NCBI GenBank assembly: GCA_050950825.1
Contig: JBMNIH010000011.1
Coordinates: 79,163 to 143,162, forward strand
Source: Clostridia bacterium
GTDB lineage: Bacteria > Bacillota > Clostridia > JAAYHZ01
Reading direction: 5' to 3'
DNA: 64,000 bases
The position numbers were made by a program, and so were the translations under genes. This document shows, one piece after another, positions 42,557 through 60,256 of the stretch (its first letter is position 1; each line of letters starts with the position of its first letter). The notes under the pieces are model-generated. The model did no database searches, had not been told where the DNA came from, and saw only the letters and a list, made by a program, of their open reading frames with translations.

Positions 42557-42692
42557 CTTGATATCATAAAAAACTTGTGAAAAATGAAGGCAAGCTAATA
42601 TTTTTAAACGTTTAGTATAATAGCAGCAGAGGAAATGTTTTTAAAAACCCGATACGATATACTAAATACCGGTGAAGGAAAGGAGGCATACC

Positions 42693-43994
42693 GTGCAGTA
42701 CCCGAAAAACCTTAAAACCGTATTGGAATATATCGAACGAAATCTTAAAACCGATATTACGGCCGAAGAGTTGGCAAGGATGGCGAACTACTCAACGTTT
42801 CACTTTTGCCGTTTGTTTTCTTCGATAATGGGCTCATCCGTCTCGGGCTACATCTTAAAGCGGAGGTTGGACCATGCTCTTTCGGAAATCGCCTGCGGCC
42901 GAAAAGCCATGGACGTTGTCCTCGAGTACGGCTTTGATACGTACGCAGGGTTTTACAAGGCTTTTGTAAGGATGTACGGCTGTTCTCCGAAAAAATATCT
43001 TCGTATTTACAAAGAACATAAAGTCAATAAACCGGAGGTGGTATCCGTGTATTCGGAAAAAGACATACGAAGCATTTTGGAGCATTGGGATATTGAAAAA
43101 AACCTTCCCGTCAAAGACATCTATATTATGGACGGAGCAAAGGTATCGGGTAACGTTTGGACGGTAGGAAACGATTACATCTTAAAAACCGGAAAACGAG
43201 AAGCATTGATTAAAAATCTTCGCATAGCAAAGGAGCTTCATAAATTAGGCTTTTCTTCTTCCCTGCCCGTATTAACAAAGGACGGAAAAGAATATGTAGA
43301 CAATGAAGAAATCTTTGTTCTGACACACGGGATCAAGGGAAGCCCTCTTCCGAAATCCGAAAGATTCGGTGAAAATCGTTATGCATTCGGTTTGGAATAC
43401 GGAAAAAGTATTGCCAAGCTTCATAAAGCTTTAAAGGCCGTACAAAAGGAGGTATCTCTTGACGAAACGGATTTGTATCGCCATGTGACAAATTGGGCGC
43501 TTCCCAATGTAAAAAAGCAAAACATTCAATGGAGCATGGGAATCGATGAAAGCTTTTTTGACGATTATGTAAATCGCTTCGGCGTATTGTTTGAAAAATT
43601 ACCGAAGCAGCTGATTCACCGAGATCCGAATCCCGGCAACATCCTGTTTGACAAAGATAGGGTAAGCGGATTCATTGATTTTGATTTAAGCGAAATCAAT
43701 ATCCGTTTATGGGATGTTTGCTATTGCGCAACCGGTATCTTAAGCGAAGGAAGCGATGAAGCTTATGAAAAATGGCCGGAAATACTGAAGGGAATTCTCC
43801 ACGGTTATGACCAAGAAGGAAAGCTTACCAAAGAAGAAAAGCAGTCGGTCTTCTATGTCATATGCTCTATCCAAATGATTTGTGTCGCTTACTTTGAAAG
43901 CAAAGACATATACAAGGAGCTGGCAAAAACCAATCGGAAAATGCTGATGTACATTATCAACAAAAAGGATGAAATATCAAGCATGTTGAATTAA
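42693..43994 (+). CDS. AraC HTH fused to an APH/choline-kinase-like phosphotransferase
   Basis: N-terminal AraC HTH; C-terminal IHRDPNPGNIL and FIDFD kinase motifs. Confidence 0.85.
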   Translation: MQYPKNLKTVLEYIERNLKTDITAEELARMANYSTFHFCRLFSSIMGSSVSGYILKRRLDHALSEIACGRKAMDVVLEYGFDTYAGFYKAFVRMYGCSPKKYLRIYKEHKVNKPEVVSVYSEKDIRSILEHWDIEKNLPVKDIYIMDGAKVSGNVWTVGNDYILKTGKREALIKNLRIAKELHKLGFSSSLPVLTKDGKEYVDNEEIFVLTHGIKGSPLPKSERFGENRYAFGLEYGKSIAKLHKALKAVQKEVSLDETDLYRHVTNWALPNVKKQNIQWSMGIDESFFDDYVNRFGVLFEKLPKQLIHRDPNPGNILFDKDRVSGFIDFDLSEINIRLWDVCYCATGILSEGSDEAYEKWPEILKGILHGYDQEGKLTKEEKQSVFYVICSIQMICVAYFESKDIYKELAKTNRKMLMYIINKKDEISSMLN

Positions 43995-45259: not shown

Positions 45260-46045
45260 TCATTTGCCCGATATTTTTTCTTTATCCTTCTCTATTTCAG
45301 AAAGCATGTATTCTGCAAACTCTTCTGCCTGTTCCTCATCCGTCGAGACCTTTGCATCGTTTTGGTATTCTTCCAAAGCAGCGGTAATGAGAGTTCGATA
45401 TTTTTCCGGGACATTCATAAGCCCCCACTCCCCTCCTTCTTTTTTTGAAAGAACAAGACAGACTTTAACATATGCCAGCACCCGACATAAATTAAGAATG
45501 ATATATGTGGGATTATTTAAAATATCCGTTTTTGCATTATGAATGTCATGCCAAAGGCTGTCGAAATATTCTTTTTTGCCCACAGGTGAAAAGACCTCTT
45601 TGATCTCTTTCCCGTAGAGTGTTTTTCCTCTGTGGTATATAACCGTAACATGAGCGGCCAGGTCTTTATCCGTTCCCTTCATCTTTTCTATATATTCGTT
45701 CGGGTTTGATCGGTACCAATCCAAATGCATCAAAGAAAAATGAAGCTCATACGGTGTCGGATAAGCAAAAGGCTTTAAGAATTCCTCTTTTACGATACTA
45801 AGCTCCATCCCCTTTGGCGGAGCTTCTTTATTAAATTCAATCGTCATGTCCATATACATTTTCTTGGTTTCATAGGAAAGATCGTTTTCCACAACCGTCA
45901 AAAGGTCGATATCGCTTTTCTCGGCATTAAAACAACCCGTCACGGCAGAACCGTGTAAATATATGCCGATCAAATTATCGCCTAAAAGGTCGATATTCTT
46001 TTGTACAAAACGATCCAACAAATTTTGATACTTCTTTATACCCAT
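45260..46045 (-). CDS. Aminoglycoside adenylyltransferase-like nucleotidyltransferase (AadA/ANT, DUF4111-type)
   Basis: GIYLHGSAVTG, SDIDLL, DKDLAAH, ILNLCRVL, LSKKEGGEW. Confidence 0.82.
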   Translation of the reverse strand: MGIKKYQNLLDRFVQKNIDLLGDNLIGIYLHGSAVTGCFNAEKSDIDLLTVVENDLSYETKKMYMDMTIEFNKEAPPKGMELSIVKEEFLKPFAYPTPYELHFSLMHLDWYRSNPNEYIEKMKGTDKDLAAHVTVIYHRGKTLYGKEIKEVFSPVGKKEYFDSLWHDIHNAKTDILNNPTYIILNLCRVLAYVKVCLVLSKKEGGEWGLMNVPEKYRTLITAALEEYQNDAKVSTDEEQAEEFAEYMLSEIEKDKEKISGK

Positions 46046-48330: not shown

Positions 48331-49569
48331 ATGCAAAACCATGATGTAAATCTCGGTGTTATCGGTCTTGGATCAAGAGGTCGCGGCCTGATCAGAACCA
48401 TGTTGAATATAGAGGGGATACGGATTCTAGCCATATGCGACTCCAATCCCGGCTTCTTTGAGCAGATACTTCCTGTCTTCGATAATGCCTTGGTACCGAA
48501 ACCGGATACCTATACGGATTACAAAGCGCTTTTGGCCAGGGATGATATACAAGGCGTTGTTATTGCCACCAACTGGATCACTCATATTCCTTTGGCCATT
48601 TCCACCATGAAAGCCGGTAAATATGCCGGAGTAGAAGTGGGCGGTGCGGCATCCACGGAAGAGTGTTGGCAACTGATCAAGACGTACGAAGAAACCGGTG
48701 TTCCTTGCATGATGTTGGAAAACTGTTGCTACGGTAAATATGAAATGATGATGTACAACATGATCAAACAAGGAGTTTTCGGAGAATTGGTTCATTGCGA
48801 ATGCGGATACGGACACGATATACGCAAGATGGCGGGAAGCCTTAATAACCGGTTGTATAACAATATGCATCGAAACGGAGATTTGTACCCGACTCACGGC
48901 GTAGGTCCCATTGCCAAGATGCTGAAAATCAATCGAGGAAACCGTTTTGTCAGCATCGTATCCATGGCTTCGAAAGCGGTAGGCTTAAGAGATTGGATCA
49001 AAAAGAACAAAGAGCCGGATTATGAATTGGCAAATTTCGATTTTGTAAAAGGGGATGTCGTTCAATCTCTGATCAAATGTGCCCACGGTGAAACCGTATT
49101 GGTTACCCATAATGTCTCATTACCCCGTCCCTATTCCCGTTTTAATTTGGTTCAGGGTACCAATGCCATCTATTCGGAAGAAAGAAGCGGCATTTTCATT
49201 GATCAAAAAACACAAGAAGAAAAATGGGATCCCATTGATGACTATTTTGAAGAGTACGGTCATCCTCTTTGGAAGGACTTTATCAATAGCGGTGTCAAAG
49301 GCGGGCACGGCGGTATGGACCATTTAACATTGCTCGCATTTGCCGATGCCATTCGCAACAAAACGCAAACTCCCATCGATGTATATGATGTTGCAACATG
49401 GATGGCCATAACCGTATTATCCGAACAATCCATCCACACGGGAAGCTCCTCCGTTGCGTTCCCCGACTTTACAAACGGAAAATGGATCGACAGAGAAAAA
49501 CCTGTCAAAAGTATCTATGCGCTGGACGACATTTATCCGGAATGCTTTGTTAAAGGTAATGAATTGTGA
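48331..49569 (+). CDS. Gfo/Idh/MocA oxidoreductase, GH109-like (NAD-dependent glycosidase)
   Basis: GLGSRG, MMLENCCY, LYPTHG, GHGGMD, PDFTNGKW. Confidence 0.85.
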   Translation: MQNHDVNLGVIGLGSRGRGLIRTMLNIEGIRILAICDSNPGFFEQILPVFDNALVPKPDTYTDYKALLARDDIQGVVIATNWITHIPLAISTMKAGKYAGVEVGGAASTEECWQLIKTYEETGVPCMMLENCCYGKYEMMMYNMIKQGVFGELVHCECGYGHDIRKMAGSLNNRLYNNMHRNGDLYPTHGVGPIAKMLKINRGNRFVSIVSMASKAVGLRDWIKKNKEPDYELANFDFVKGDVVQSLIKCAHGETVLVTHNVSLPRPYSRFNLVQGTNAIYSEERSGIFIDQKTQEEKWDPIDDYFEEYGHPLWKDFINSGVKGGHGGMDHLTLLAFADAIRNKTQTPIDVYDVATWMAITVLSEQSIHTGSSSVAFPDFTNGKWIDREKPVKSIYALDDIYPECFVKGNEL

Positions 49570-49851
49570 AATACAAAAAAATGAGAATGTGTTGCTCACT
49601 TATTTTGAATCCAACCGAATAATTTCAAGGCGAGAGCAACACATTTTCATTCTTACATACCTCAATGACTTCAATCAAAGTATACAGGTGTTAATCAGGA
49701 TATGTATCTACAATAAGCAATTTTGGACATCCAATGGTCCTATATCCTTTTACTTTCCGATCTGTTATAACAAGCCGGCTGCCTTCCGGCAAGGACGGAG
49801 CCCATCATCGCCGAGTGTAGCTTAAAGATAAACCATACTTCTTTTAACAGT

Positions 49852-50066
49852 TATATCGTCCCCTTGCGGAGTGAATGGCAACTGCTAATAATATACGTAT
49901 TATCAATTGTTACTGTAGCCGTCCCCTTACGAGGATATAATCCAAGGAACAAAATGCATCGCATAATAAAGGATCCGCCCCCTGGCGGGGTTTATTCCAA
50001 AAGGATACACAAATGAAAAATGAATTTTATACACCTTTTCCGTCCCCTTTACGGGGTACTCAATAG
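49852..50066 (-). CRISPR. Cryptic array of four degenerate type III-A repeats directly downstream of csm6
   Basis: CG(T/C)CCCCT..CG.GG-like cores at 49857, 49920, 49976, 50041, same orientation as the main array; intervals of about 32, 24 and 33 nt. Confidence 0.65.
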
Positions 50067-51395
50067 CTAAAACAGCATGTTCTTGATTATGCGATTTGCA
50101 TTATCATAAGATTTCAGGGTATTATTGTCAATCTTAATATCGATAGCCTTGGTTACTTTGACCAATAAATTAAAGATATCTTCCGGTGAATAACCTTCGG
50201 TCGCATTTATAACTCTTTCTTTTGTTACAATAGTAATGGTATGAGCCGCTTCATTTCGTATTTTTTTCTCTATTTTGTTGAGCGTCTCGATATCCTCAAT
50301 GATTTCATGAGAACTGAAATGCTTTAATAAAACCGTCATAGTTTCCGTATTTAAGAAATCCGGTATAAAATTTCCTTTAAACCTTGCTTGAAGCGCACCG
50401 AGTACTTCCGGATTCTTGTTGAGTTTTTCCAAACACCAATAGGGTACATTTCGATTTTTCCCTCTCATTTCGCAATAATCCTTGACTGCATCGATATTGC
50501 ACAAGACTTTTAATGCTCTTTCAAGCAAACTCGTCAAAATCGGGGTAATACCTCTTACAAAATCCGCATACTCCTCGTTATGAATTTTCGTTTGCAACCA
50601 TAAAAGATATTCGACGATTTTGTAATTTTCATTATTTTTTTCCGGTAACAAATCATAAGGAAGAGAATTTAATTCTTTCAACATCTTCAGTACATCCAGT
50701 TGGGTTCTCCATTTCATAGCTTTTAATAAACAGACGACATCCGACGGAATATGATTCTTTATGGATTCGGCTACGGCCAATGCGGCGGAATAATCGTAAG
50801 CATCGATATGGTTTACCACAACGTTCTTCATTACTTCGGCAAGAAGAGTCACGCTTTCGGATTTACTGCAACGGTTTTCAAAATCCTTCGTGTTGTCTTT
50901 ATTGTATTCCCAATAAAAATGAACATCGTAATCTTTGATATTCTCCCTATGCTCGTTAATCTTTTTCGCCGGTGTTGACACTTGAACCGGAATTATCGAA
51001 TCTCCCGACACGGCGGCTATAAATTGCAGGGCACCTTTCATTGACGGCGTTCCGGACGATACATTGAGAATGACGGTTGCATCACTGTGCTTTTCCCTTA
51101 TTTCTTTAATTAACTCTCGATACTCTTTATAAAACAAGTCAAACTTATGTACATCGACCAGATCGCGGCGTTCGATAATGTGAACATCAAACTTATGACC
51201 GAGCAGTTCTCCTAATCGATGAATGCAGAAGCGATATCGATCGTCTTTATCATGGAATTCGCACATTTCTTTGGATAAATATAAATAGACGCTTTCCGGC
51301 TTATAAACTCTACAAATATGAAGCATGGAACCGTCCCTGAAATTAGAAATAGGATCGGTACCGCCGATAGCGGAAAACAAAACATACTTTGTCAT
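50067..51395 (-). CDS. csm6: Type III-A CARF-HEPN ribonuclease Csm6
   Basis: FSAIGGTDPI, NVSSGTP CARF motifs; RNEAAH HEPN motif. Confidence 0.92.
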   Translation of the reverse strand: MTKYVLFSAIGGTDPISNFRDGSMLHICRVYKPESVYLYLSKEMCEFHDKDDRYRFCIHRLGELLGHKFDVHIIERRDLVDVHKFDLFYKEYRELIKEIREKHSDATVILNVSSGTPSMKGALQFIAAVSGDSIIPVQVSTPAKKINEHRENIKDYDVHFYWEYNKDNTKDFENRCSKSESVTLLAEVMKNVVVNHIDAYDYSAALAVAESIKNHIPSDVVCLLKAMKWRTQLDVLKMLKELNSLPYDLLPEKNNENYKIVEYLLWLQTKIHNEEYADFVRGITPILTSLLERALKVLCNIDAVKDYCEMRGKNRNVPYWCLEKLNKNPEVLGALQARFKGNFIPDFLNTETMTVLLKHFSSHEIIEDIETLNKIEKKIRNEAAHTITIVTKERVINATEGYSPEDIFNLLVKVTKAIDIKIDNNTLKSYDNANRIIKNMLF

Positions 51396-51428: not shown

Positions 51429-52532
51429 TCATTGTATTTGTAATTGGCAAAGCCCCATCTCCATAATTTCTCCATTGTATCGGGTACACTTTAGCAAACG
51501 GGGAGAAACACCGAGTTGAATATCTTTATGGTGTTGATGCTGCATACGAATGAATTTCGGCAGAGTACGGTTAAAAATCTCGCTTGTGACACGCACCCCT
51601 TCTTCTTTACCGAAAATGGCATATGTAACGGTCTTGGAGGCATATCCGCATCCTCCGCCTAAGTAAAATGCATTTTTCGGATAAACCTTTTGCCTTCCGA
51701 AAGCTTCCAAAAACGTTTTTTGATAATGACTGAAAAATCGATTTACGGCATTTGTTAGATATTCTACATCATACGGATAAAGCTTCGTATCGATTGTCAT
51801 ATCAAACTCGACGGTAACATCCGGTCTGATACATTCTCGAAAAACATTGATTGGTTTTTCTTTTCCGTCGACGGTTACATCAACCTTTTGGCACAAAACC
51901 AAATTCGCCAATGCCAGAGGCTTACTGTCGCTGATGCGAATACCCGCCAAGTGGTCGTTGGCAGCATGTTTTTTCTTCTTCGGATATCTGTTCAATGTAT
52001 GAAACACATCTTGTTCTATCGATTCCATAGGATATTTCAATACATCTTTTTTCTCTTTGTTTTTTATCTCCTCTTTTATCGCATTCTTAACGGGATCGGA
52101 AACATTCCGATTCAGCAAAGCGTGTCCTAAAAGAGCGGTTCTTAAGGCACCCTTAAGGCTGCTACCGGGAATATAGGGATTTCCGTATGCATCTTTTATA
52201 CACGCCAAAACTTCTTTTCTGCTTCTTCCTTCGATAACGGCGTCACCGCTGTCTAAGCTATAGGACATCCAAGGGAGGTATTGTTTTTCCTGTATCAAGT
52301 TTTCTTTGAAAAAGAGTCCCAAATCTTTGTCCTCATACAATAAGTAATTGTAATACTTATCGAGAAGTTTTAATTTTTGAAATCCGGACAGCATTTTCGC
52401 TTGGTCGGGGATATAGACTTTTCGTGTTCTTCTATCAAAGACATATTCTTTTTTCGGTATGGATGTACCGGACCCTATAAACACAGGTGCCAAGGTTTTC
52501 ACGGTGATTTTATACGTTTTCAAAAAATCCAC
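51429..52532 (-). CDS. csm5: Type III-A RAMP protein Csm5
   Basis: APVFIGSG, PYIPGSSLKGALRT, YLGGGCGYASKT. Confidence 0.92.
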   Translation of the reverse strand: MDFLKTYKITVKTLAPVFIGSGTSIPKKEYVFDRRTRKVYIPDQAKMLSGFQKLKLLDKYYNYLLYEDKDLGLFFKENLIQEKQYLPWMSYSLDSGDAVIEGRSRKEVLACIKDAYGNPYIPGSSLKGALRTALLGHALLNRNVSDPVKNAIKEEIKNKEKKDVLKYPMESIEQDVFHTLNRYPKKKKHAANDHLAGIRISDSKPLALANLVLCQKVDVTVDGKEKPINVFRECIRPDVTVEFDMTIDTKLYPYDVEYLTNAVNRFFSHYQKTFLEAFGRQKVYPKNAFYLGGGCGYASKTVTYAIFGKEEGVRVTSEIFNRTLPKFIRMQHQHHKDIQLGVSPRLLKCTRYNGEIMEMGLCQLQIQ

Positions 52533-53456
52533 CTAATCCACCTCCAAAAACAAAGGCTTACCGTAGCGATAAACGGGATGATTTCCTCCCGAAGAAACAT
52601 CGTAAATATCGCCTTCAAATTGAACGGAAAAACAGCTTCCCGAGCGGAATAAATACATGTCTTTTTTCTTAACAAAGCTTTCCGCATAGTTTTGAGACTG
52701 TACAAAACCGCTTCTTTTGCCGACGAGATAATAAGCGTTTTGCATTGCCGACTCCAATTCATTCTCTTTCGGTAAACAAAAGGATAAGGTCATGTAGGTT
52801 TTTGCGTTTTTGCTTTTTAAACGCTTTTCCATCGTAAAAGGTACATTCGCTTTTTCCGTTTCAAATTTACCGTAGCCGGATGAAATTTTGCCTCCCACCC
52901 CGGTAAAGGACAACCCTTGCAGGAGCCGTTCAAAAAGTGCAATCGTTTTTTCTTTTTTATATCCTACGCAAAAATAGATACCGTTTCCTCGTTTAAATCG
53001 ATAAATACCTATTTGGTAGGGTTCGGTCTCCGTGTATGTTTTAATCGAATTTTTTTCATGGGTTTCAAAAACTCCTAATCCGCTTAACGTTTTCTCTTCG
53101 TCGTCCGCCTTAAGGTCTCCCGCCATATATTCGTCCAGTTTATCAACGGGAATATACTTTAACTTTTTAAAAGCTTTCTTGAACTTCGGACTGCTTGTCT
53201 TTTCGGCAAGTACGGGCTTTAAAGGTTTCGGAATATAAATGCGGCTTTCAATAAAAGGCAAACCGTCGGAAAAAACAAGCTCTTTGCTTCTTACGGCATT
53301 GACCCATTCCTTTATATCCAAACCTTGCTTTACCGTTTCATGACACAATGCGGAAAAGAAGGTATCGGAGGGTAATGTATATTCGCTGCCGGATAAACCG
53401 CCGTCTCCTATATGTACTCCGGTTTTAAAATGCAGTTTGTACAGAATGAATTCCAT
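52533..53456 (-). CDS. csm4: Type III-A RAMP protein Csm4
   Basis: VHIG, SDTFFSAL, GVGGKISSGYGKF, HPVYRYGKP. Confidence 0.92.
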   Translation of the reverse strand: MEFILYKLHFKTGVHIGDGGLSGSEYTLPSDTFFSALCHETVKQGLDIKEWVNAVRSKELVFSDGLPFIESRIYIPKPLKPVLAEKTSSPKFKKAFKKLKYIPVDKLDEYMAGDLKADDEEKTLSGLGVFETHEKNSIKTYTETEPYQIGIYRFKRGNGIYFCVGYKKEKTIALFERLLQGLSFTGVGGKISSGYGKFETEKANVPFTMEKRLKSKNAKTYMTLSFCLPKENELESAMQNAYYLVGKRSGFVQSQNYAESFVKKKDMYLFRSGSCFSVQFEGDIYDVSSGGNHPVYRYGKPLFLEVD

Positions 53457-53458
53457 TA

Positions 53459-54133
53459 TTACACACCCTTGAGCACTTTCTTGCAATCCTCAACGATCGC
53501 CGGATTGACCTCGCCCATGACCAAGTTAATATCCAAATTTTCAAATTGAATTTTTCCGTAGCCTCTCGATCCGTGCCCGCCTATATAGTCGAATTCCAAT
53601 AATTTTAACCCTTCCTTTACCAAATGAATGTCTTCCAAGATTTCCTCTTCGTTTTCCGCCTCGTAAATAATATGTAGATCAAAAGAACTGCCCCGAATAA
53701 CGCGCTCGATTTGCCTCGGATTCGCTTCGGCTTTCATTCGGTGGATGCTGTTTTCAATTTTTATTTCGGTAGGCGACAACGCTCCTCTTCTTCGAAGCTC
53801 CTCGGCATTATTAAGAATCGTATCGGAAAAAAGAAGTCTGCTTTTTCTTATTTCACCTTTTTTAGAGGATCCGAAAAGCCGCAGTATGAGGACGTGATCG
53901 TCGTTATGGTTGTAATCGTCGTAATCGTCATCCGGGTATTCATTTAACTTTCTCGCCAATAAATATCTCATTTTTCCCTTCAAACTGCTGCCCGGAATGA
54001 TGGGTAAACCTGTCAACGCATCTCTTATAACGGGAGCATCAACGGAACCGATGGCGGAAAACTGCGTGGCTCCGCCTATATGCATTCCGGTGATTACGTT
54101 GATGACACCCGTTATTTCAAACTTGGCATACAT
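53459..54133 (-). CDS. csm3: Type III-A RAMP protein Csm3
   Basis: TGMHIGG, AIGSVDAPV (catalytic Asp retained), IPGSSLKGK, GGHGSRGYG. Confidence 0.95.
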   Translation of the reverse strand: MYAKFEITGVINVITGMHIGGATQFSAIGSVDAPVIRDALTGLPIIPGSSLKGKMRYLLARKLNEYPDDDYDDYNHNDDHVLILRLFGSSKKGEIRKSRLLFSDTILNNAEELRRRGALSPTEIKIENSIHRMKAEANPRQIERVIRGSSFDLHIIYEAENEEEILEDIHLVKEGLKLLEFDYIGGHGSRGYGKIQFENLDINLVMGEVNPAIVEDCKKVLKGV

Positions 54134-54150
54134 TGTGTTTTCATCCTCCT

Positions 54151-54558
54151 TTAATCTCTGCCGCCGTAGAATTTATGGTATGCTACCAAAGCCTCCATGT
54201 ACCTGCAAAAGATCAAAAGCTGAGACCGACTCGTCTGTATCTCATCGATATGCTTGAATATTTCCGCTTTTTCTACGAACTTCCGAACCGCTTGCGTGTT
54301 ATCTCGACCCGCTTCATAGGCAAAACGCATCTTGAGGTATTGGATACGGCCTAGAATATCGTTATCCAGCTTTTCATCCAATCTCATGGACACCGTGTTG
54401 TAAATATCCGTGATCATCGACAGCAGGTTTCGTATTTTCGATGTGGTAAGCATGAGTTTATAACCGTCCCCGTTTTTCTCAGGAACCCGCAAAGATTGAA
54501 TGACTTCCTCCGCTTTAGGGACATAATTCAGTTCATTTAATTCCGCCAAAAAACTCAT
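54151..54558 (-). CDS. csm2: Type III-A small subunit Csm2
   Basis: LTTSKIRNLL, AYEAGR, YMEALVAYHKF. Confidence 0.93.
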   Translation of the reverse strand: MSFLAELNELNYVPKAEEVIQSLRVPEKNGDGYKLMLTTSKIRNLLSMITDIYNTVSMRLDEKLDNDILGRIQYLKMRFAYEAGRDNTQAVRKFVEKAEIFKHIDEIQTSRSQLLIFCRYMEALVAYHKFYGGRD

Positions 54559-56867
54559 CTCCTCTCCCTTGTGATGTAATCGTACAGATGGATGGCGCAC
54601 ACAAGCTCTTTAGAGTCTTTATCCGACTGCATCCATTCAACCATTTTCTTAGAAAATTCACGATATAAAGCTTTTTTCGATTCGCTTTCTTTTTCACCGG
54701 GTGCCATACGGGCTAAAAGGTGTGCGTACCTTGCCAGATTGATACGGTCGTCTCGATTCTGAATCAAAATCAACAGATTATGCAAAAAGCTTCTGCCTCT
54801 GCCGCTTGAACCTCCGAAAAACCGTTTTAAGATACTGTATTTTTCTTCCAAAACATGATGGATAAAATCATGCTGCGAAAAAACGAATTCGTCGGTAAAC
54901 AGCGCAATCGAGTTTTTGCCGGGATTCGATTTTGCTCTGCTTTCCAGTTCGCCGGTTTGCTTTGCTATCGCGGCTATCGGATATTTATACGGATAAATCC
55001 CTATCCCTGCCGATAAGGTTAACGTTCCTTGGCTATATCGGTTAAAACTGCGGTACAAATCCACGGTGAACCCGATGATGTCATCCCAAGACCCGACTAT
55101 AAAAATGTCGTCTCCTCCGGAATACACAATCGTTGCATTTCGAGGCCTTATATCTTGATTCTTACCGATACGGTATTCGCCGTGTTCCAAAAGATAATTA
55201 ATATGCAGTTTAAAGAATTCGGATAATTTTCTTGAGAAGGAAGCGGTTCGGGACAGGGTTACATAATCATCTTGGTTCCGTTCGCTTTCAAATCCCGAAA
55301 CAAATGCTTGTCCCAAATCGTCTACATCCGCTCTTAATACGGCAATGCGCTCGATTCCTTCCGCCGCCCGGGCCAATTCATCAAAAATTTTTTCATCGGT
55401 ATAATCTCCGACCCATAATCGGGTAGTAACATAATGACCGTGATACAAATTGTTTTTACCGTAACTTCGAACATAGGTCAAATCCCTCGCCATTCGGCGA
55501 TTCAATGTATCCACCGTATCCGCAACCAAATAGCGGTCCCCCGGCAAAGGCAAGGATACACCCTCCGGTTTTTCCGATACCACACTGAAAAAGGAATCTC
55601 GCAATATATTTGTCGATATTTTTTCCAATGCATCGCATATGCCGCATCGGTTGCTTGAAATTAAAAAATCCGTTCGTTTACAAACAACGCATTCTCTGTC
55701 ATAGCGTTCCGTATTTCCTTGATTCAATTCCAAAATTTCGTTTGCACCGTACCGATGCAATTTTTTAGCCGACACCTTTGACGATGCGGTCCTAAAAATA
55801 TTTCCGTAACTTCCTTTCGGTATATTCCGTAAATCACGGACACAAAATTCGCTGTATCCGCAAGCAACATATAAAGAAGTTTTGTAAGTCTTTAAAAACC
55901 ATCGGTTTGTTTCTTTTTCGAACCTTTCGATTTTTTCAATGACATCTCGTGTGTTCGGCAGCAGCAAATAGGCGTGACCTCCGCCGGAATACATAAGGTT
56001 AACCCGTGTTAATCCTATAGACTCCAAGAGTTCATCGATCAAGTGCTCGACCATGATTTCCAGATAAAAGGATCTTGCACGAAGCGTCTTCAATGCTCTT
56101 TCGCTGCTTACGGTGTAAATGAAATCTTGAATGCCCGATACATCCATTTCAAATAGAAGAAATGCTTTTTCCGAATAGAAGGTTTCTTTATTCGTCTTCA
56201 ACCTCGTTTTATAATCTCTACAGCCTAGGCTTTCTAAATAACGGAGTATGCAGACACCTATACAAGCCGTCATCTTTAAGTGGTCATACAAAGAGATGTC
56301 GGCGATTTCTCCTTCGCCTTGCAAAGATGAAACGTATGAAAGGTTGTTATGCAGTGTATCCAGCAGTAAATGAACGAAGTCTCGAGTAAAAGAAACATTC
56401 AAAAGACATTTTTCCATATTCTTTGCAATATCGTCATACGCCTTTTGGTCAACCGTTGGAGAATCGGGAACAGGATAATTGATATCCCGTTCTTTTGTGT
56501 ATGTTTTCACGGAATAAAAGTATTTTTGTCGGTTTCCGTTTAATATATTAAAAATGCTTTCCAAGGGTCTGATACTCGAATCCCCTTGATTTTGATTCTC
56601 CTGTTGAAGCTTCGTTTTTCTGTTCACAATATCATTGGCCGTCTCCGTGATGTATACGAGAGAGGATTCATTGTTCGAGTGATAGAATAGATCCGTATTA
56701 TGATGATAAAGGACTTGATCCAAAAGGTCCTTATCGGTTATGCCTACCTTTTGCAGCAGATCGTATCCTCTTTTACAGTGATCTTCATCGTTAAGTTGGG
56801 AACCTGGTATTTTCCCGAGATCATGCAATAAGCATCCAAGCACTATCTTGAACATATTCTCATTCAT
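54555..56867 (-). CDS. cas10: Cas10/Csm1
   Basis: LLHDLGK, ISLYDH, DVSGIQDFIY, LRARSFYL, DVDDLG, YSGGDD. Confidence 0.95.
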   Translation of the reverse strand: MNENMFKIVLGCLLHDLGKIPGSQLNDEDHCKRGYDLLQKVGITDKDLLDQVLYHHNTDLFYHSNNESSLVYITETANDIVNRKTKLQQENQNQGDSSIRPLESIFNILNGNRQKYFYSVKTYTKERDINYPVPDSPTVDQKAYDDIAKNMEKCLLNVSFTRDFVHLLLDTLHNNLSYVSSLQGEGEIADISLYDHLKMTACIGVCILRYLESLGCRDYKTRLKTNKETFYSEKAFLLFEMDVSGIQDFIYTVSSERALKTLRARSFYLEIMVEHLIDELLESIGLTRVNLMYSGGGHAYLLLPNTRDVIEKIERFEKETNRWFLKTYKTSLYVACGYSEFCVRDLRNIPKGSYGNIFRTASSKVSAKKLHRYGANEILELNQGNTERYDRECVVCKRTDFLISSNRCGICDALEKISTNILRDSFFSVVSEKPEGVSLPLPGDRYLVADTVDTLNRRMARDLTYVRSYGKNNLYHGHYVTTRLWVGDYTDEKIFDELARAAEGIERIAVLRADVDDLGQAFVSGFESERNQDDYVTLSRTASFSRKLSEFFKLHINYLLEHGEYRIGKNQDIRPRNATIVYSGGDDIFIVGSWDDIIGFTVDLYRSFNRYSQGTLTLSAGIGIYPYKYPIAAIAKQTGELESRAKSNPGKNSIALFTDEFVFSQHDFIHHVLEEKYSILKRFFGGSSGRGRSFLHNLLILIQNRDDRINLARYAHLLARMAPGEKESESKKALYREFSKKMVEWMQSDKDSKELVCAIHLYDYITRERR

Positions 56868-57624
56868 TTGTTTCAAGTCCCCCTTTTTTAATAATACGGA
56901 TTCCTCCCATTCCCAAGGCACATTTAATACCTACTCCGGAATATTCGCCGAACGCAAGCATGAAGTGAACCAAGTTTACCAACGGTTGGGGACCGTGAAC
57001 TTTTATTCCGATTCTTCCGACAAAAGAAGGTATGCGAACTCCTTCCAAGTGAAAATGAGTACTTCTTAAATTGTATCCGACGATTTCCGAATATGTTTCC
57101 AGCTGTTCCAAGACTTCATCGCTTTTTATCGAAAAATCTACAGCATTCGAATCGAACTTATTCATCAAACTTTGGTAGATTAATTTCAAAGTTGGCATTA
57201 GCACATATTTTCCCCGGCTTTTAAATGCACAGGGCGTAAGAAAACGAATATTAAAAAATTGTCCGCTGTCTTTAAAATACGTTTCATCAATCAATTGTTG
57301 ATAGGTAACTTCCGTCAACTGTTTATCGGAAATATTTAAATACCGATCTTTGTGTTTTAAATAAACTCGATCGAATTTCTCATCCAGAAGCGGACATAGA
57401 ATATTATTTTTGGAATCTTCCGACAAAGTTTGAATATGCCAATATATACAGTTCCCCTTACATTCTATGTATTGGCTGTACGGTTTCCATCCTGCTTGAT
57501 GTAGGCTTTCGGCATAATAGGAATCAATATATTCCATTAATACACCATGCAGTAACGAAGAGATGTTTACATCAAATGATTGTTCCTCTTTTGTCTCTAG
57601 TATAATCGTTAATCTTGATAGCAT
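56860..57624 (-). CDS. cas6: CRISPR endoribonuclease Cas6
   Basis: LHGVLME, FLTPCAFK, GEYSGVGIKCALGMG G-rich loop. Confidence 0.93.
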   Translation of the reverse strand: MLSRLTIILETKEEQSFDVNISSLLHGVLMEYIDSYYAESLHQAGWKPYSQYIECKGNCIYWHIQTLSEDSKNNILCPLLDEKFDRVYLKHKDRYLNISDKQLTEVTYQQLIDETYFKDSGQFFNIRFLTPCAFKSRGKYVLMPTLKLIYQSLMNKFDSNAVDFSIKSDEVLEQLETYSEIVGYNLRSTHFHLEGVRIPSFVGRIGIKVHGPQPLVNLVHFMLAFGEYSGVGIKCALGMGGIRIIKKGGLETNE

Positions 57625-57726
57625 GAAACACCCACCGCAAATAATGAAGAAAAGGAAAATGCACCCTCGAATGAATAGACTAACACAATAATATGGCTAA
57701 GTCAATTAAAACAACCTAATTCTATT

Positions 57727-58088
57727 CTTCCCATTCCCTTGCAGGTATTAGATTCAACCGGAACTCATTTCCAATTCGTTCAGAGCGGATTTTCCCGTCC
57801 CCTCACGGGGGTTAGTTGTAACTGCAACAATCCGTAATGGCGTAGTATTTTCGTCCCCTCACGGGGGTTAGTTGTAACAGAAACGACGACCTATACCTGA
57901 CCATTTTCGTCCCCTCACGGGGGTTAGTTGTAACATTAAGGACTCGCCGATAACGCAGAGAACGTTAATTGACTAAGTGACATTTTCGTCCCCTCACGGG
58001 GGTTAGTTGTAACATCAGCATGTATAATGTCTATTATGTCACGAATGACATGCAATATTTTCGTCCCCTCACGGGGGTTAGTTGTAAC
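57727..58088 (-). CRISPR. CRISPR array: five 32-nt repeats (GTTACAACTAACCCCCGTGAGGGGACGAAAAT on minus) plus one degenerate terminal repeat
   Basis: Repeats at 57791 (variant), 57847, 57903, 57982, 58057; degenerate copy (21/32 vs the 57791 repeat) at 57727-57758; spacers 32, 24, 24, 47, 43 nt. Confidence 0.95.
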
Positions 58089-58300
58089 GGCAACTTTATG
58101 CAACACAGTGTTTTCAAAGGTTTCAACATGGCTTTGTGCGAGTGTCATTTTTTTATGTTTAGTTAGGTTCATAAAAAAGTTAAAAAGTAGCCGAAGCCTG
58201 CTTGCAGAGCCAAGTGCGAATCTCCCAGGATTTTAATGTACACTTGAGGTTCGCACTAAATAATACAGCTTATGTCAACTACTATTGTTAGAATACCATA
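58089..58300 (-). promoter_or_regulatory. CRISPR leader
   Basis: AT-rich, next to the intact end of the array, with inverted repeat GTGCGAATCTC (58214-24) / GAGGTTCGCAC (58246-56). Confidence 0.65.
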
Positions 58301-58360
58301 GTTAATACATTTCTTCCATAGGATTCATAATTAAATATTCAAGCTCTATATTATAAAAAG

Positions 58361-58390
58361 AAATCCCGCTATATCGGTTATAGCGGGATT
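58361..58390 (-). terminator. Intrinsic terminator after the solute-binding protein gene
   Basis: AATCCCGCTATA...TATAGCGGGATT with T-tract on minus. Confidence 0.75.
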
Positions 58391-58417
58391 ATTTTGAAAA
58401 AGGTTTTTGTAATGTTT

Positions 58418-60256
58418 TTACGGTAATTTTCCGAAGTTTTCATAAGTCGGTATTGCAGGATCGTTCCATATCTTTACCCATTCTTCCAGACCGGCTGCAT
58501 AGATTTGCTCGATATATTGTTCCCATTCCGTATGGATATTGGCTATCTGGCCATTGAATACCTTATTCACAAAATCATTGTGTACCGTGTTGATCTGAGG
58601 CAATGTTTCATCCCTTAGTTCTCTGAACTCCTTATAGAGTTCCGGTGTCATGGTAAATTCGGAATAGTATTTATCCGGTCGAATCCACAAATTATCGCTA
58701 TGATAACCTCCCGGAAAATATTCATCGTAGTAATCTATAATTTGGTTCGTGAATGCATCGTAGTTAAAATACATTTTATTATCACTGATAAAATTGACAT
58801 TACCGAATTGACCGAAAATATTGGTCCCTTTTCCTGCATATTTCGGAGGAATCTTCTCAGGATCCGTCAAGATGATGGAACTCTTGAAGGGTTCACCGTC
58901 CCATACGTAATGGACGCCTTCGATTCCCAGCTTATAACGAAGCCAGTCTTCACCGAAGTAAGCATATTCTAATAATTGCATGAGTCTTATCAGTTTTGCA
59001 TCCGATACATTAATGCCTACAGGATAAGTTGTACTTGAGTTCCAGTCAAAGGTCCAATAGGGGCGGAATTTTCCTGAACCCGGTACCGGCGTAACCACAA
59101 AGGTAGCTGTAGGTTCCGTTTCCAGTATGGATAAAGGCGGACGGTTTACCGCTTGTTGGTTATATCCTAAGATGGACGATCCTAACAATGCATTCATAAA
59201 CCCGGTTTTTCCGGTTTTCCAAATAGCAATTAACTCGCTGTAGTAGTCATCTATCCCGGGAACCCATCTCATATATCCTTTATTAAGCATTTCCATCAAA
59301 TAATCCAAGCTGTCTTTATACGGCGTATAGGCATAATAGATAACATAGTCTCCCGTCACCGGATCTTTATAAAAATGATTTGCGTCCTTGTCAAACCCGA
59401 ACATTCCGTAAGTACTGTAGACGTCATACCACGTATTTGTGAAGGCCGTTCCATATGTATCGTCAATGCCGTTGCCGTCCGGATCGTCTTCCGTAAAGGC
59501 TCTGTAAATTTCTTTTACATCATCTACGGTGAACTGTGTTGTCGAGTAATAGACCGTTTCACTGTATTCCGGGAAAGCCGTTGACACCATAGGTACCAGG
59601 TTTTCCATTTCATATCCTATATTCTCCAGCCAATCCAGTCTCCACATGGGTATATGATAAGTATGTGTAGTTAAGCAAGTAAAGGCGGTAAAACCGTAAT
59701 ACTCTCCTTCCTTATCCGGTACCTTGTTGAATTGCAATCCGACAGGGTCTTCCATGAGTTTTTTGTAATAGCTCGGATAATACTCCTTCATCATGTTGAG
59801 TGGAATGGTTCTACCCAACCCTTGCTCATACAAATACTGTCCGCTTGTATAGTAGAACCCGTAATCAGGAACATCTCCCGCCGCTAACATCATTTGGACT
59901 TGTTCCATGTTACTCGAGTCCACCATGATGTTCCACATTTTCAAGTCCACGTTGAATTTTTCTTCCAGCTCCAGTTCGTCCCAACGTCCTTCCTCGTAAA
60001 GATGGGAAGAATAGGTTCCTACCAACCAAGTGATTTCCATCTTTTCTGCAAAAGGATTCTCATCAACTTTGACCGCTGTTGTGGTTTCTTCTTTTTTGGT
60101 TTGTACGGTCGTTGTTATCGCTTTCGTGGTTGTCGTGGTTTGTTGGACGCTTGTTGTTGTTTCCGTCCCTTGTACATCACCTTCCGTTTTAGCACATGCA
60201 GCCATACCAAGGATAAGAACAATCACCATTACCAAAACCGATACTCTTTTCAGCAT
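58418..60256 (-). CDS. ABC transporter solute-binding lipoprotein, paralogue of 19527-21353
   Basis: Lipobox MAAC, MLAAGDVPDYGFYY, DDPDGNGIDDTYG, WEQYIEQIYAAGL. Confidence 0.88.
   Translation of the reverse strand: MLKRVSVLVMVIVLILGMAACAKTEGDVQGTETTTSVQQTTTTTKAITTTVQTKKEETTTAVKVDENPFAEKMEITWLVGTYSSHLYEEGRWDELELEEKFNVDLKMWNIMVDSSNMEQVQMMLAAGDVPDYGFYYTSGQYLYEQGLGRTIPLNMMKEYYPSYYKKLMEDPVGLQFNKVPDKEGEYYGFTAFTCLTTHTYHIPMWRLDWLENIGYEMENLVPMVSTAFPEYSETVYYSTTQFTVDDVKEIYRAFTEDDPDGNGIDDTYGTAFTNTWYDVYSTYGMFGFDKDANHFYKDPVTGDYVIYYAYTPYKDSLDYLMEMLNKGYMRWVPGIDDYYSELIAIWKTGKTGFMNALLGSSILGYNQQAVNRPPLSILETEPTATFVVTPVPGSGKFRPYWTFDWNSSTTYPVGINVSDAKLIRLMQLLEYAYFGEDWLRYKLGIEGVHYVWDGEPFKSSIILTDPEKIPPKYAGKGTNIFGQFGNVNFISDNKMYFNYDAFTNQIIDYYDEYFPGGYHSDNLWIRPDKYYSEFTMTPELYKEFRELRDETLPQINTVHNDFVNKVFNGQIANIHTEWEQYIEQIYAAGLEEWVKIWNDPAIPTYENFGKLP

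What the first reader, a model, noticed from the sequence alone, without database searches (positions are those of the whole stretch)
49852..50066. Cryptic repeat array behind csm6 that keeps the Cas6 hairpin while the sequence has drifted
Seen: four repeat-like units start immediately after the csm6 stop. On the minus strand the main repeat hairpin is CCCC-GUGA-GGGG followed by ACGAAAAU. The four variants are CCCC-GUAAA-GGGG/ACGGAAAA, CCCC-GCCA-GGGG/GCGGAUCC, CCUC-GUAA-GGGG/ACGGCUAC and CUCC-GCAA-GGGG/ACGAUAUA. Both stem changes are C-to-U, which keeps G-U pairing, and two loops stay GNRA, while the 5' halves diverge strongly. Established: degenerate repeats beside cas genes encode regulatory or antitoxin crRNA-like RNAs (CreA/CreR, mainly type I). 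Inference: these are selected Cas6 substrates giving non-canonical guides, or they process the cas mRNA 3' end, in an RNA-targeting type III system. A simply decayed old array is the alternative.
Basis: partly seen in the sequence, partly recalled or inferred. Interest (0 to 1): 0.7.

Follow-up and report, generated by a model that had tools for sequence, protein, structure and literature searches.

The report
Worn second CRISPR array behind csm6
Right after the last gene of an RNA-guided (type III-A) CRISPR defence locus lies a short, old-looking second repeat array that has kept only the small hairpin needed for cutting by the Cas6 enzyme, which suggests it is still used rather than mere debris.

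Summary
Four repeat-like units lie on the minus strand just after the csm6 stop codon of an intact type III-A locus (cas6-cas10-csm2-5-csm6, with a 5-repeat main array upstream of cas6). Stems plus the first four tag bases match the main repeat at 45 of 48 positions. All other repeat positions match at 28 of 80 (Fisher p 1.5e-11). The conserved part is what a review reports as required for Cas6 primary processing in the Staphylococcus epidermidis III-A system: the hairpin plus GGGACG. Three of the four units keep both. A near-consensus promoter, the only one of its kind in the window, sits 46 nt upstream inside the csm6 3' end. A strong terminator follows about 200 nt after the last unit. The closest related operons, two Tissierellia MAGs whose seven Cas proteins are 45-61% identical, also carry hairpin-only units right after csm6. 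Those units are the only ones found in those genomes. No spacer target was found, and processing and loading are not shown. Best reading: an old, non-growing but still transcribed and Cas6-cut mini-array. Neutral decay is unlikely. A CreA/CreR-like regulatory role is unsupported. This is a new member of a known kind, of moderate interest.

The parts
50103..50131 (-). Promoter-like site TTGACA-17 nt-TATGAT (11 of 12) inside the 3' end of csm6, 46 nt upstream of the first hairpin
   Evidence: the only TTGACA-N16-18-TATRAT match in the window on either strand, expected 0.11; sites with at least 11 of 12 matches occur at 0.037 per strand-kb in the genome.
50067..51395 (-). csm6 (CARF+HEPN), last gene of the type III-A operon
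   Evidence: TIGR02672, 447 bits. Pfam CARF, 6H and HEPN domains.
50036..50056 (-). Unit D: CCCC-GUAAA-GGGG plus tag ACGGAAAA. Keeps the hairpin and GGGACG.
   Evidence: 1 mismatch to the family motif.
49991..50035 (-). Spacer-like stretch 1 (45 nt to the next stem, including the drifted 5' repeat half)
   Evidence: No target found.
49971..49990 (-). Unit C: CCCC-GCCA-GGGG plus tag GCGGAUCC. Hairpin kept, but GGGACG is changed to GGGGCG.
49935..49970 (-). Spacer-like stretch 2 (36 nt)
49915..49934 (-). Unit B: CCUC-GUAA-GGGG plus tag ACGGCUAC. Has a G-U wobble; GGGACG kept.
49872..49914 (-). Spacer-like stretch 3 (43 nt)
49852..49871 (-). Unit A: CUCC-GCAA-GGGG plus tag ACGAUAUA. Has a G-U wobble; GGGACG kept.
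49649..49851 (-). Non-coding tail after the last unit, holding a weak terminator-like hairpin at 49790-49774
49575..49648 (-). Strong intrinsic terminator for the minus-strand transcript: about 15-bp stem 49648-49583 followed by U7 at 49581-49575. It lies between convergent genes.
   Evidence: Read and folded.
51429..57624 (-). cas6, cas10, csm2, csm3, csm4, csm5, all with open frames
57791..58088 (-). Main array: 5 repeats of 32 nt (the last with a changed tag) and spacers of 43, 47, 24 and 24 nt

Best explanation
This is a second, old and no longer growing CRISPR array of the type III-A locus. It is transcribed on the minus strand, both from its own promoter inside the csm6 3' end and by read-through from the cas operon. 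The transcript ends at the terminator at 49648-49575.

Cas6 binds each 4-bp hairpin and cuts at its 3' base. This releases 3-4 crRNA-like RNAs that start with the 8-nt tags. It also leaves the cas mRNA with a hairpin at its 3' end.

[quoted passage not shown] Only the hairpin and the first tag bases therefore still matter. Purifying selection has kept these while the 5' repeat halves, the loops and the tag ends drifted.

Shown:
- the anatomy
- the site-specific conservation
- the promoter-like and terminator-like signals
- the parallel layout in the nearest operons

Inferred:
- transcription from that promoter
- cleavage by Cas6
- loading into Csm (most plausible for unit D, whose tag is nearly canonical)
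- any immune use of the guides
For: 1. Conservation pattern. Stems plus ACGR match the main repeat at 45 of 48 positions; the 5' halves, loops and last four tag bases match at 28 of 80 (35%, random about 26%). Fisher p is 1.5e-11. The stems are all G/C, the sites that GC-to-AT mutation pressure should hit first.

2. Match to known Cas6 requirements. A review (PMC5965381, passages read) reports that primary processing in S. epidermidis III-A needs hairpin formation plus GGGACG at the stem base. Units D, B and A (3 of 4) keep both.

3. Direction of the stem changes. Both are C-to-U, which keeps G-U pairs only in the minus-strand RNA. Across 161 related loci, unique hairpin cores show 29 C-to-T changes in the 5' arm against 11 G-to-A changes in the 3' arm (p 0.006). 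In 22 units from the window, L009 and L010, 96.6% of 88 pair cells are paired, with 10 U-G cells.

4. Transcription signals. The promoter-like TTGACA-17-TATGAT lies 46 nt upstream and is the only such site in 64 kb. The genome density of sites with at least 11 of 12 matches is 0.037 per strand-kb, so about 0.004 is expected in a 100-nt leader. A terminator with a U7 tract lies downstream.

5. Related operons. All 7 Cas proteins have their best matches in L009/L010 among 160 loci (45-61% identity), with the same gene order and no cas1/cas2.
   - Both loci carry 3-4 hairpin+tag units right after csm6.
   - Of 145 evaluable loci, only these, the window's own species and one locus with a canonical array have two or more units there.
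   - In the contigs held for the L009 and L010 genomes, such units occur only at this locus.

6. L009 versus L010. Unit columns are 81 of 107 identical, other intergenic columns 122 of 247 (p 4e-6), and four-fold sites of csm6 69 of 105.

7. System integrity. The cas genes are intact.

8. Weak support. Contigs from three RNA libraries lie on parts of 49648-50321.
Against: - There is no direct evidence of transcription start, cleavage or loading. The RNA-library contigs are of low depth and cannot show strand or ends, and DNA carry-over is not excluded.
- Three of the four tags differ from the canonical tag in their last four bases. Unit C has lost the A of GGGACG, so some units may be cut or loaded poorly.
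- No protospacer was found for any spacer. The same holds for the main array against phages.
- The ancestral repeat is unknown. The 5' halves of units B and C look more like another repeat subtype of the family, so part of the 'drift' from the main repeat may reflect different origin.
- There is no compensatory covariation, only one-sided changes.
- Common descent of the post-csm6 units with those of L009/L010 is not shown, because the Csm6 tree backbone is unresolved.
- A published survey judged type III mini-arrays to be likely degraded and non-functional (PMC10120712, passages read).
Confidence: 0.5

Rival explanations
1. The units are kept for Cas6 binding and cleavage as such, not for their guides. 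They punctuate or end the cas transcript: they cut off read-through RNA, leave a Cas6-bound hairpin that stabilises the csm6 3' end, or titrate Cas6. Alternatively they give crRNA-like regulators.
For: - Conservation stops after the Cas6 determinants; the tag ends needed for a canonical handle drift.
- No terminator lies between the csm6 stop and unit D, only 10 nt.
- In L009/L010 the units sit at gene borders: between csm5 and csm6, after csm6 ahead of a UDG-family gene, and in L010 one solitary unit 11 nt before the cas6 ribosome-binding site.
- There the hairpins are conserved (81 of 107 columns) while the stretches between them are less alike (122 of 247) than four-fold sites (69 of 105).
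Against: - A promoter of its own is not needed for 3'-end processing.
- Four units are more than one cleavage site requires.
- No complementarity to the cas locus or its promoters beyond chance 11-13-mers was found.
- No regulatory type III mini-array turned up in four literature searches.
- The low similarity of the L009/L010 spacers can equally reflect unit turnover.
Confidence: 0.22
2. The units are a relic. The array was once functional, has lost its use and is now decaying, and the hairpins are simply what is left.
For: - Every unit differs from the others, and the tags are degenerate.
- No targets were found.
- Degenerate trailing repeats are common at array ends in this family.
- The published survey reached this view for type III mini-arrays (PMC10120712).
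- The same-species contig L091 shows 0 changes in 427 nt downstream of csm6 against 4 changes in csm6, which is uninformative.
Against: - Uniform decay cannot give 45 of 48 against 28 of 80. If core sites matched at the non-core rate, the binomial probability would be about 1e-17; even at a 60% match rate it would be about 1e-7.
- G/C stems should decay fastest.
- The promoter-like site is intact.
- The same layout persists in operons only about 50% identical in protein.
- When degenerate units of the family are picked by whole-length identity (n=76), stems are 80% kept against 61-64% elsewhere. The window's contrast is much stronger.
Confidence: 0.22
3. The array guards antisense small ORFs. 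The plus strand of each spacer-like stretch carries a ribosome-binding-site-like motif and an ATG, opening ORFs of 17-21 codons that run through the repeat complement. Csm guided by the minus-strand RNAs would silently cleave these transcripts, in the manner of a type III CreTA.
For: - All 3 spacer-like stretches show CAT followed 3-8 nt later by a TCC-type motif on the sense strand (read).
- The plus strand of stretch 1 looks like a typical gene start.
Against: - The pattern was noticed post hoc.
- The spacing is poor in 2 of the 3 stretches.
- The reading frames through the repeat differ, and the peptides are unrelated.
- The only plus-strand promoter-like site is weak (9 of 12) and lies inside the array at 49875-49903.
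- The look-alikes in other genomes are unrelated gene starts of low complexity.
Confidence: 0.03

Closest known systems
Canonical type III-A CRISPR arrays of Bacillota, with repeats ending CCCC-loop-GGGG-ACGRAAAY and processed by Cas6 (S. epidermidis model)
   Same: - Same hairpin and tag start.
- Same strand as the cas genes and repeat-like spacing.
- Promoter-bearing leader.
- The hairpin plus GGGACG requirement reported for primary processing (PMC5965381) is met in 3 of 4 units.
- 54 of 66 arrays called in 81 related loci show the full CCCC-loop-GGGGACG core in their consensus repeat.
   Different: - The repeats are not alike over their whole length: 35% identity outside the core.
- Every loop differs, and three tags are non-canonical.
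- There is no adaptation module in the locus.
- The array sits after csm6. In 33 of 81 loci the array lies between csm5 and csm6, and in 25 of those at least 1 kb ahead of csm6. L020, the one such gap checked, holds cas1-cas2.
Mini-arrays flanking type III loci (Shmakov et al. 2023 preprint, PMC10120712)
   Same: A short array of degenerate repeats just outside a type III operon. The preprint reports these for 10% of III-A loci (Table 1 and passages read).
   Different: That survey found no positional conservation and no targets, and called the mini-arrays likely degraded. Here the position recurs in the nearest operons, the Cas6 determinants are selectively kept, and a promoter is present. 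Its supplementary files 3 and 5, which list the type III cases, could not be seen.
CreA/CreR crRNA-like regulators of type I and V systems (CreTA; Cas-regulating RNAs)
   Same: Degenerate repeats beside cas genes that keep what the effector needs. Only abstracts were seen for PMC9458426 and 10.1101/2023.03.10.532045.
   Different: Those RNAs guide DNA-binding effectors to a promoter through partial complementarity. Here the effector targets RNA, no target in the locus or genome was found, and there are four units rather than one or two.
Degenerate terminal repeats of ordinary CRISPR arrays
   Same: Older units accumulate changes. In this family the trailing units often keep the hairpin and ACG.
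   Different: Here no canonical repeats precede the degenerate ones. The whole array is degenerate and stands apart, 7.7 kb from the main array.

Membership tests
CRISPR array (type III-A, Cas6-processed) | Three or more direct repeats at regular spacing separated by unrelated spacers | tested here: met
   Four units with tag-to-tag spacing of 65, 56 and 63 nt. The spacers are unrelated to each other.
CRISPR array (type III-A, Cas6-processed) | Repeats nearly identical over their whole length | tested here: not met
   Only stems plus ACGR are alike (63 of 72 pairwise positions). The other positions match at 44 of 120 among the four units. The repeat finder did not report them.
CRISPR array (type III-A, Cas6-processed) | Next to cas genes of the matching type, on the same strand | tested here: met
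   The first stem starts 10 nt after the csm6 stop, on the minus strand like all cas genes.
CRISPR array (type III-A, Cas6-processed) | Cas6 determinants: repeat hairpin plus GGGACG at the stem base | tested here: met
   The hairpin is present in 4 of 4 units, two of them with a G-U pair. GGGACG is present in 3 of 4. The requirement is as reported in PMC5965381 for another species' Cas6; it was not tested for this Cas6.
CRISPR array (type III-A, Cas6-processed) | Leader with promoter | tested here: inconclusive
   A consensus match of 11 of 12 lies at 50131-50103. Its activity was not measured.
CRISPR array (type III-A, Cas6-processed) | Transcribed, cut into unit-length RNAs and loaded into Csm | not testable with these tools
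   Only assembled contigs from RNA libraries were available. They cannot show ends or strand.
CreA/CreR-type regulatory crRNA-like RNA | Spacer partly complementary to a promoter or transcript of a toxin or cas gene nearby | tested here: not met
   blastn-short of the four stretches against the whole genome gives best non-self matches of 15 nt (E about 0.09). In the cas locus there is only a same-sense 13-mer.
CreA/CreR-type regulatory crRNA-like RNA | Spacer conserved among related loci | tested here: not met
   No significant similarity between the window's stretches and those of L009/L010. Some spacer families are shared between L009 and L010 only.
Degraded type III mini-array (as in PMC10120712) | No positional conservation in related genomes and no sign of constraint | tested here: not met
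   The position recurs in L009/L010 and constraint on the core is strong. Common descent is not proven.

The most novel reading that the evidence does not exclude
In this lineage of type III-A systems without an adaptation module, hairpin-only repeat units are maintained as functional Cas6 sites that are uncoupled from guide content. A promoter-driven mini-array and units at gene borders serve to shape cas transcripts or to feed Csm with fixed, non-canonical RNAs. That would be a type III counterpart of the crRNA-like regulators known from type I and V, and would contradict the view that type III mini-arrays are debris.
Probability: 0.15. Interest if true: 0.75.

Novelty: new member of a known kind. 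Interest (0 to 1): 0.42.

Why it matters
Degenerate mini-arrays beside type III loci have been written off as decayed repeats. In this case the decay has spared the positions that a review reports Cas6 needs. The array has its own promoter-like site, and the nearest related operons show the same layout and, in the contigs held, have no other hairpin units. If the units are cut and used, three things would follow:
- Type III systems that have lost adaptation can keep a small fixed set of guides or RNA-processing sites for a long time.
- Repeat-finding tools that demand whole-length identity miss them.
- The minimal in vivo requirement for a Cas6 substrate could be read from natural variation.

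Tried and rejected
**Targets**
- The four spacer-like stretches and the four main spacers were searched against the own genome. There were no matches beyond 15 nt.
- Both arrays were searched against the phage collection: best E 0.9 for the cryptic array and 4 for the main array.
- The cryptic array was searched against plasmids: best E 0.2.
- The cryptic array was searched against 399 scored genomes of the class. 22 other genomes had matches at E of 0.01 or lower. I fetched the contexts of 18 matches in the stretch-1 and unit-D part of the query. Twelve lie at starts of unrelated ORFs, the rest are internal or non-coding, and all are short A/T-rich matches. I rejected all 18 as protospacers. 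The few matches to other parts of the query were not examined.

**Relatives**
- Csm6 was found in 1 of 60 related genomes, at 31% identity.
- The single-protein scan of genome contigs confirmed 0 of 108 stretches.
- L113 (50%) and L124 (48%) lack the csm6 3' end.

**RNA evidence**
- One read-laying run on four RNA runs gave low-depth contigs only.
- A contig of X18 ends at 49861, 2 nt from the predicted cut of unit A. Contig ends are not RNA ends, so I do not count it.
- Parts of the region without cover say nothing.

**Structure and RNA families**
- No compensatory changes were seen, and the shuffle control is uninformative because the 3' arm never varies.
- Rfam gave nothing on the units at E up to 1.

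**Other checks**
- A unit-like site elsewhere in the genome (C6, 1 mismatch) lies inside an ORF and was rejected.
- A shared L009/L010 spacer family was searched as a 22-nt pattern in both genomes and found only itself.
- The idea of plus-strand small ORFs is weak; see the rival explanations.
- One search used a wrong register for unit D and is replaced.
- Supplementary files of papers were closed. Supplementary files 3 and 5 of PMC10120712 may list comparable type III cases.

Full report
**What is there**

The window's minus strand carries a complete type III-A locus.
- A leader region is followed by a main array of five 32-nt repeats (58088-57791) with spacers of 43, 47, 24 and 24 nt.
- Then come cas6 (57624-56860), cas10, csm2, csm3, csm4, csm5 and csm6 (51395-50067), all with open frames and family matches.
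- Cas6 scores just under the NCBIfam cut-off (53.6 against 58.65 bits) but above the Pfam cut-off.

Ten bases after the csm6 stop codon the first of four hairpin+tag units begins:
- D: CCCC-GUAAA-GGGG / ACGGAAAA
- C: CCCC-GCCA-GGGG / GCGGAUCC
- B: CCUC-GUAA-GGGG / ACGGCUAC
- A: CUCC-GCAA-GGGG / ACGAUAUA

Tag-to-tag spacing is 65, 56 and 63 nt.

Chance is excluded.
- The 15-nt core with up to 3 mismatches hits 8 places in the window: 5 in the main array plus A, B and C. The expectation is 0.87, and 0 of 100 shuffles reach 8.
- A hairpin+tag scan finds the four units clustered, with only about four scattered weak sites on that strand.
- In the whole genome no other array of this repeat exists.
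- One unit-like site on another contig is a coding sequence.

**Pattern of conservation**

I split each unit into a core (two 4-nt stem arms plus ACGR) and the rest (12 nt of 5' half, 4 loop positions, last 4 tag bases).
- The four units match the main repeat at 45 of 48 core positions and at 28 of 80 other positions. Fisher p is 1.5e-11.
- Among themselves they match at 63 of 72 core positions against 44 of 120. Random identity in this region is about 26%.
- Ascertainment cannot explain this. With a per-site match of 0.5, a unit passes a 10-of-12 core filter with probability about 0.02, and four consecutive units at array spacing with about 1e-7 (my arithmetic).
- The stems are pure G/C, so mutation pressure towards A/T should erode them first.
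- Both stem changes are C-to-U. These keep a G-U pair in the minus-strand RNA but would give A-C mismatches in a plus-strand RNA.

The conserved core equals what a review (PMC5965381, passages read) reports from mutant pre-crRNAs of the S. epidermidis III-A system: hairpin formation plus GGGACG at the stem base are needed for primary processing. Units D, B and A keep both. Unit C has GGGGCG. I did not read the primary paper.

**Family context**

Csm6 has no close relatives in the collections.
- It was found in 1 of 60 related genomes, at 31% identity.
- Outside the window's own species the best protein is 54% identical, then 47% or less.

I fetched 80 loci from genome contigs (of 249 confirmed relatives) and 80 from metagenome contigs (of 230).
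- Of 66 arrays called in the first 81 loci, 54 show CCCC-loop-GGGGACG in full in the consensus repeat. The rest are truncated consensus calls or other repeats, and all are on the csm6 strand.
- In 33 of 81 loci the array lies between csm5 and csm6, in 25 of them at least 1 kb ahead of csm6. In L020, the one gap I checked, the gap holds cas1 and cas2.
- The window's locus has no cas1/cas2. The only copies in the genome lie on another contig, next to a 37-repeat array of an unrelated repeat.
- Degenerate trailing units that keep the hairpin are common at array ends.
- I also picked degenerate units by whole-length identity (55-85%), without weighting the hairpin. In 76 such units the stems are 80% kept against 61-64% for all other parts (some rows are register-shift artefacts).
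- Among unique hairpin cores of 161 loci with a single stem change, C-to-T in the 5' arm occurs 29 times and G-to-A in the 3' arm 11 times (p 0.006). This count includes the window's own two events through L091.

Selection on the sense-strand RNA hairpin is therefore a family trait. The window's units show it in extreme form.

**The nearest operons**

All seven Cas proteins of the window have their best matches, among the 160 loci, in L009/L010. These are two Tissierellia MAG contigs. L092 and L093 are copies of L009.
- Identities: Cas6 51-52%, Cas10 50%, Csm2 56-61%, Csm3 58-59%, Csm4 48%, Csm5 53-54%, Csm6 45-47%.
- They share the gene order cas6-cas10-csm2-5-csm6 without cas1/cas2.
- Both carry 3-4 hairpin+tag units with differing loops and A/T-rich 5' sides directly after csm6, ahead of a UDG-family gene.
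- Both also carry 4-7 such units between csm5 and csm6.
- L010 has one solitary unit 11 nt before the cas6 ribosome-binding site.
- Of 145 loci with a complete csm6 3' end and at least 300 nt downstream, only L009 (with its two copies), L010, the same-species contig L091 and L068 (a canonical array) have two or more units within 600 nt. Three loci have one weak hit each.
- In the contigs held for the two MAGs the exact hairpin pattern occurs only at this locus. MAGs may lack arrays.

L009 and L010 are 88% identical in Csm6 and 69 of 105 identical at four-fold sites.
- Their intergenic unit columns are 81 of 107 identical and the other aligned columns 122 of 247. This figure depends on the alignment.
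- Some spacer families recur between the two mini-arrays and the two genomes.

A Csm6 tree puts the window with the 54% protein, and L011 with L009/L010. The link between these two groups is unresolved. Shared descent of the post-csm6 units is therefore plausible from the seven best hits but not shown.

**Transcription signals**
- On the minus strand, TTGACA-17 nt-TATGAT lies at 50131-50103 inside csm6, 46 nt before the first stem.
- It is the only TTGACA-N16-18-TATRAT match in the window, with 0.11 expected.
- Sites with at least 11 of 12 matches number 5 in the window and 265 in the genome, or 0.037 per strand-kb. About 0.004 is expected in a given 100-nt leader.
- The organism has Spo0A, so it is an endospore-forming Bacillota, for which this consensus is apt.
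- L009 and L010 also have an 11-of-12 site on the sense strand inside csm6, about 255 nt before the stop.
- The same scan found no minus-strand site of at least 9 of 12 in the main array's leader region.
- After unit A come about 200 nt of non-coding sequence with a weak terminator-like hairpin (49790-49774). Then comes a stem of about 15 bp (49648-49583) with U7.
- The 516-nt region folds better than its shuffles (z -3.8), and hairpins D, B and A appear in the minimum-energy fold.

**Expression data**
- Fourteen DNA runs from sludge, digester and bioreactor samples hold all sampled words of 49400-50600. They may include the source sample and are not independent.
- The same-species contig L091 differs at 4 sites, all in csm6, and at none in the 427 nt downstream. 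This is uninformative.
- Contigs of four metatranscriptome runs lie in pieces over the whole cas locus at depths of 1-14. Three of the four have pieces within 49648-50321.
- This is compatible with transcription but proves neither strand nor ends, and does not exclude DNA carry-over.

**What it most likely is**

The best reading is an old second array that no longer grows but is still transcribed and cut by Cas6.
- Selection holds only the Cas6 determinants.
- The 5' half of the repeat matters for spacer integration, which this locus cannot perform, and in type III maturation it is trimmed from the crRNA 3' end. That last point is established knowledge, as summarised in PMC5965381.
- Unit D, with a nearly canonical tag, is the best candidate for a loaded guide.
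- I give this reading 0.5.

The rival readings:
- Cleavage itself is the selected function (transcript punctuation, 3'-end protection or regulation): 0.22. It draws on the drift of the tag ends and the gene-border positions in L009/L010.
- A relic that is now without function: 0.22. It must assume that constraint ended only recently.
- A Csm-guarded antisense small-ORF module: 0.03. This is a long shot.

**Comparison with the known**
- The preprint of Shmakov et al. (PMC10120712; passages and Table 1 read) reports mini-arrays near 10-16% of type III loci (10% of III-A). It found no positional conservation and no targets, and judged them likely degraded. This case belongs to that class but departs from the verdict on two counts: constraint and position.
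- CreA/CreR regulators (abstracts only) act through DNA-binding type I and V effectors with partial matches to promoters. The defining target match was looked for here and not found, so I do not file the array there.
- Four literature searches turned up no described functional type III mini-array. This is not proof that none is in print.

**Verdict**

This is a new member of a known kind, with a modest chance of being the first constrained type III mini-array.

Noticed in passing
window 57791-58088 (minus strand): The main array has unusual spacer lengths (43, 47, 24 and 24 nt). Its last repeat has a changed tag (ACGGGAAAAT). The simple scan found no sense-strand promoter-like site of at least 9 of 12 in 57600-58500.
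   Followed up: partly
window 57506-57837: An RNA-library contig of run X15 matches up to 57837, in the middle of the last spacer, and then continues with 15 unlike letters. This may be a strain with another spacer or an assembly artefact.
   Followed up: no
own genome, contig C6 146506-150349: A second CRISPR locus with 37 repeats of an unrelated 31-nt repeat, next to the genome's only cas1 and cas2.
   Followed up: partly
L010 2870-2889: A solitary hairpin+tag unit lies 11 nt before the cas6 ribosome-binding site. A Cas6 cut there would set the 5' end of the cas mRNA. The unit is absent at the same place in L009.
   Followed up: partly
L009 9752-10000 and 11327-11547; L010 9035-9517 and 10841-11094: Spacer-like stretches of two families recur in the mini-arrays before and after csm6 and in both genomes, which suggests growth by unit duplication. 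Both families contain CCTCC-like (anti-Shine-Dalgarno-like) words.
   Followed up: partly
window 49991-50035, plus strand: The complement of spacer-like stretch 1 reads like a typical Bacillota gene start: a ribosome-binding-site-like AAAGGA, 8 nt, then ATGAAAAATGAA. Of the 18 match contexts fetched from other genomes, 12 are starts of unrelated ORFs, so the similarity is of low complexity.
   Followed up: yes
L009 11045-11073; L010 10559-10587: A promoter-like TTGGCA-17-TATAAT (11 of 12) lies on the sense strand inside csm6, about 255 nt before its stop, in both MAG loci.
   Followed up: no
window 45260-46045 and 42672-43994: An ANT-type nucleotidyltransferase-like gene (best 93.5 bits, below all curated cut-offs) and a gene fusing an AraC-type HTH with an APH phosphotransferase domain.
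   Followed up: no
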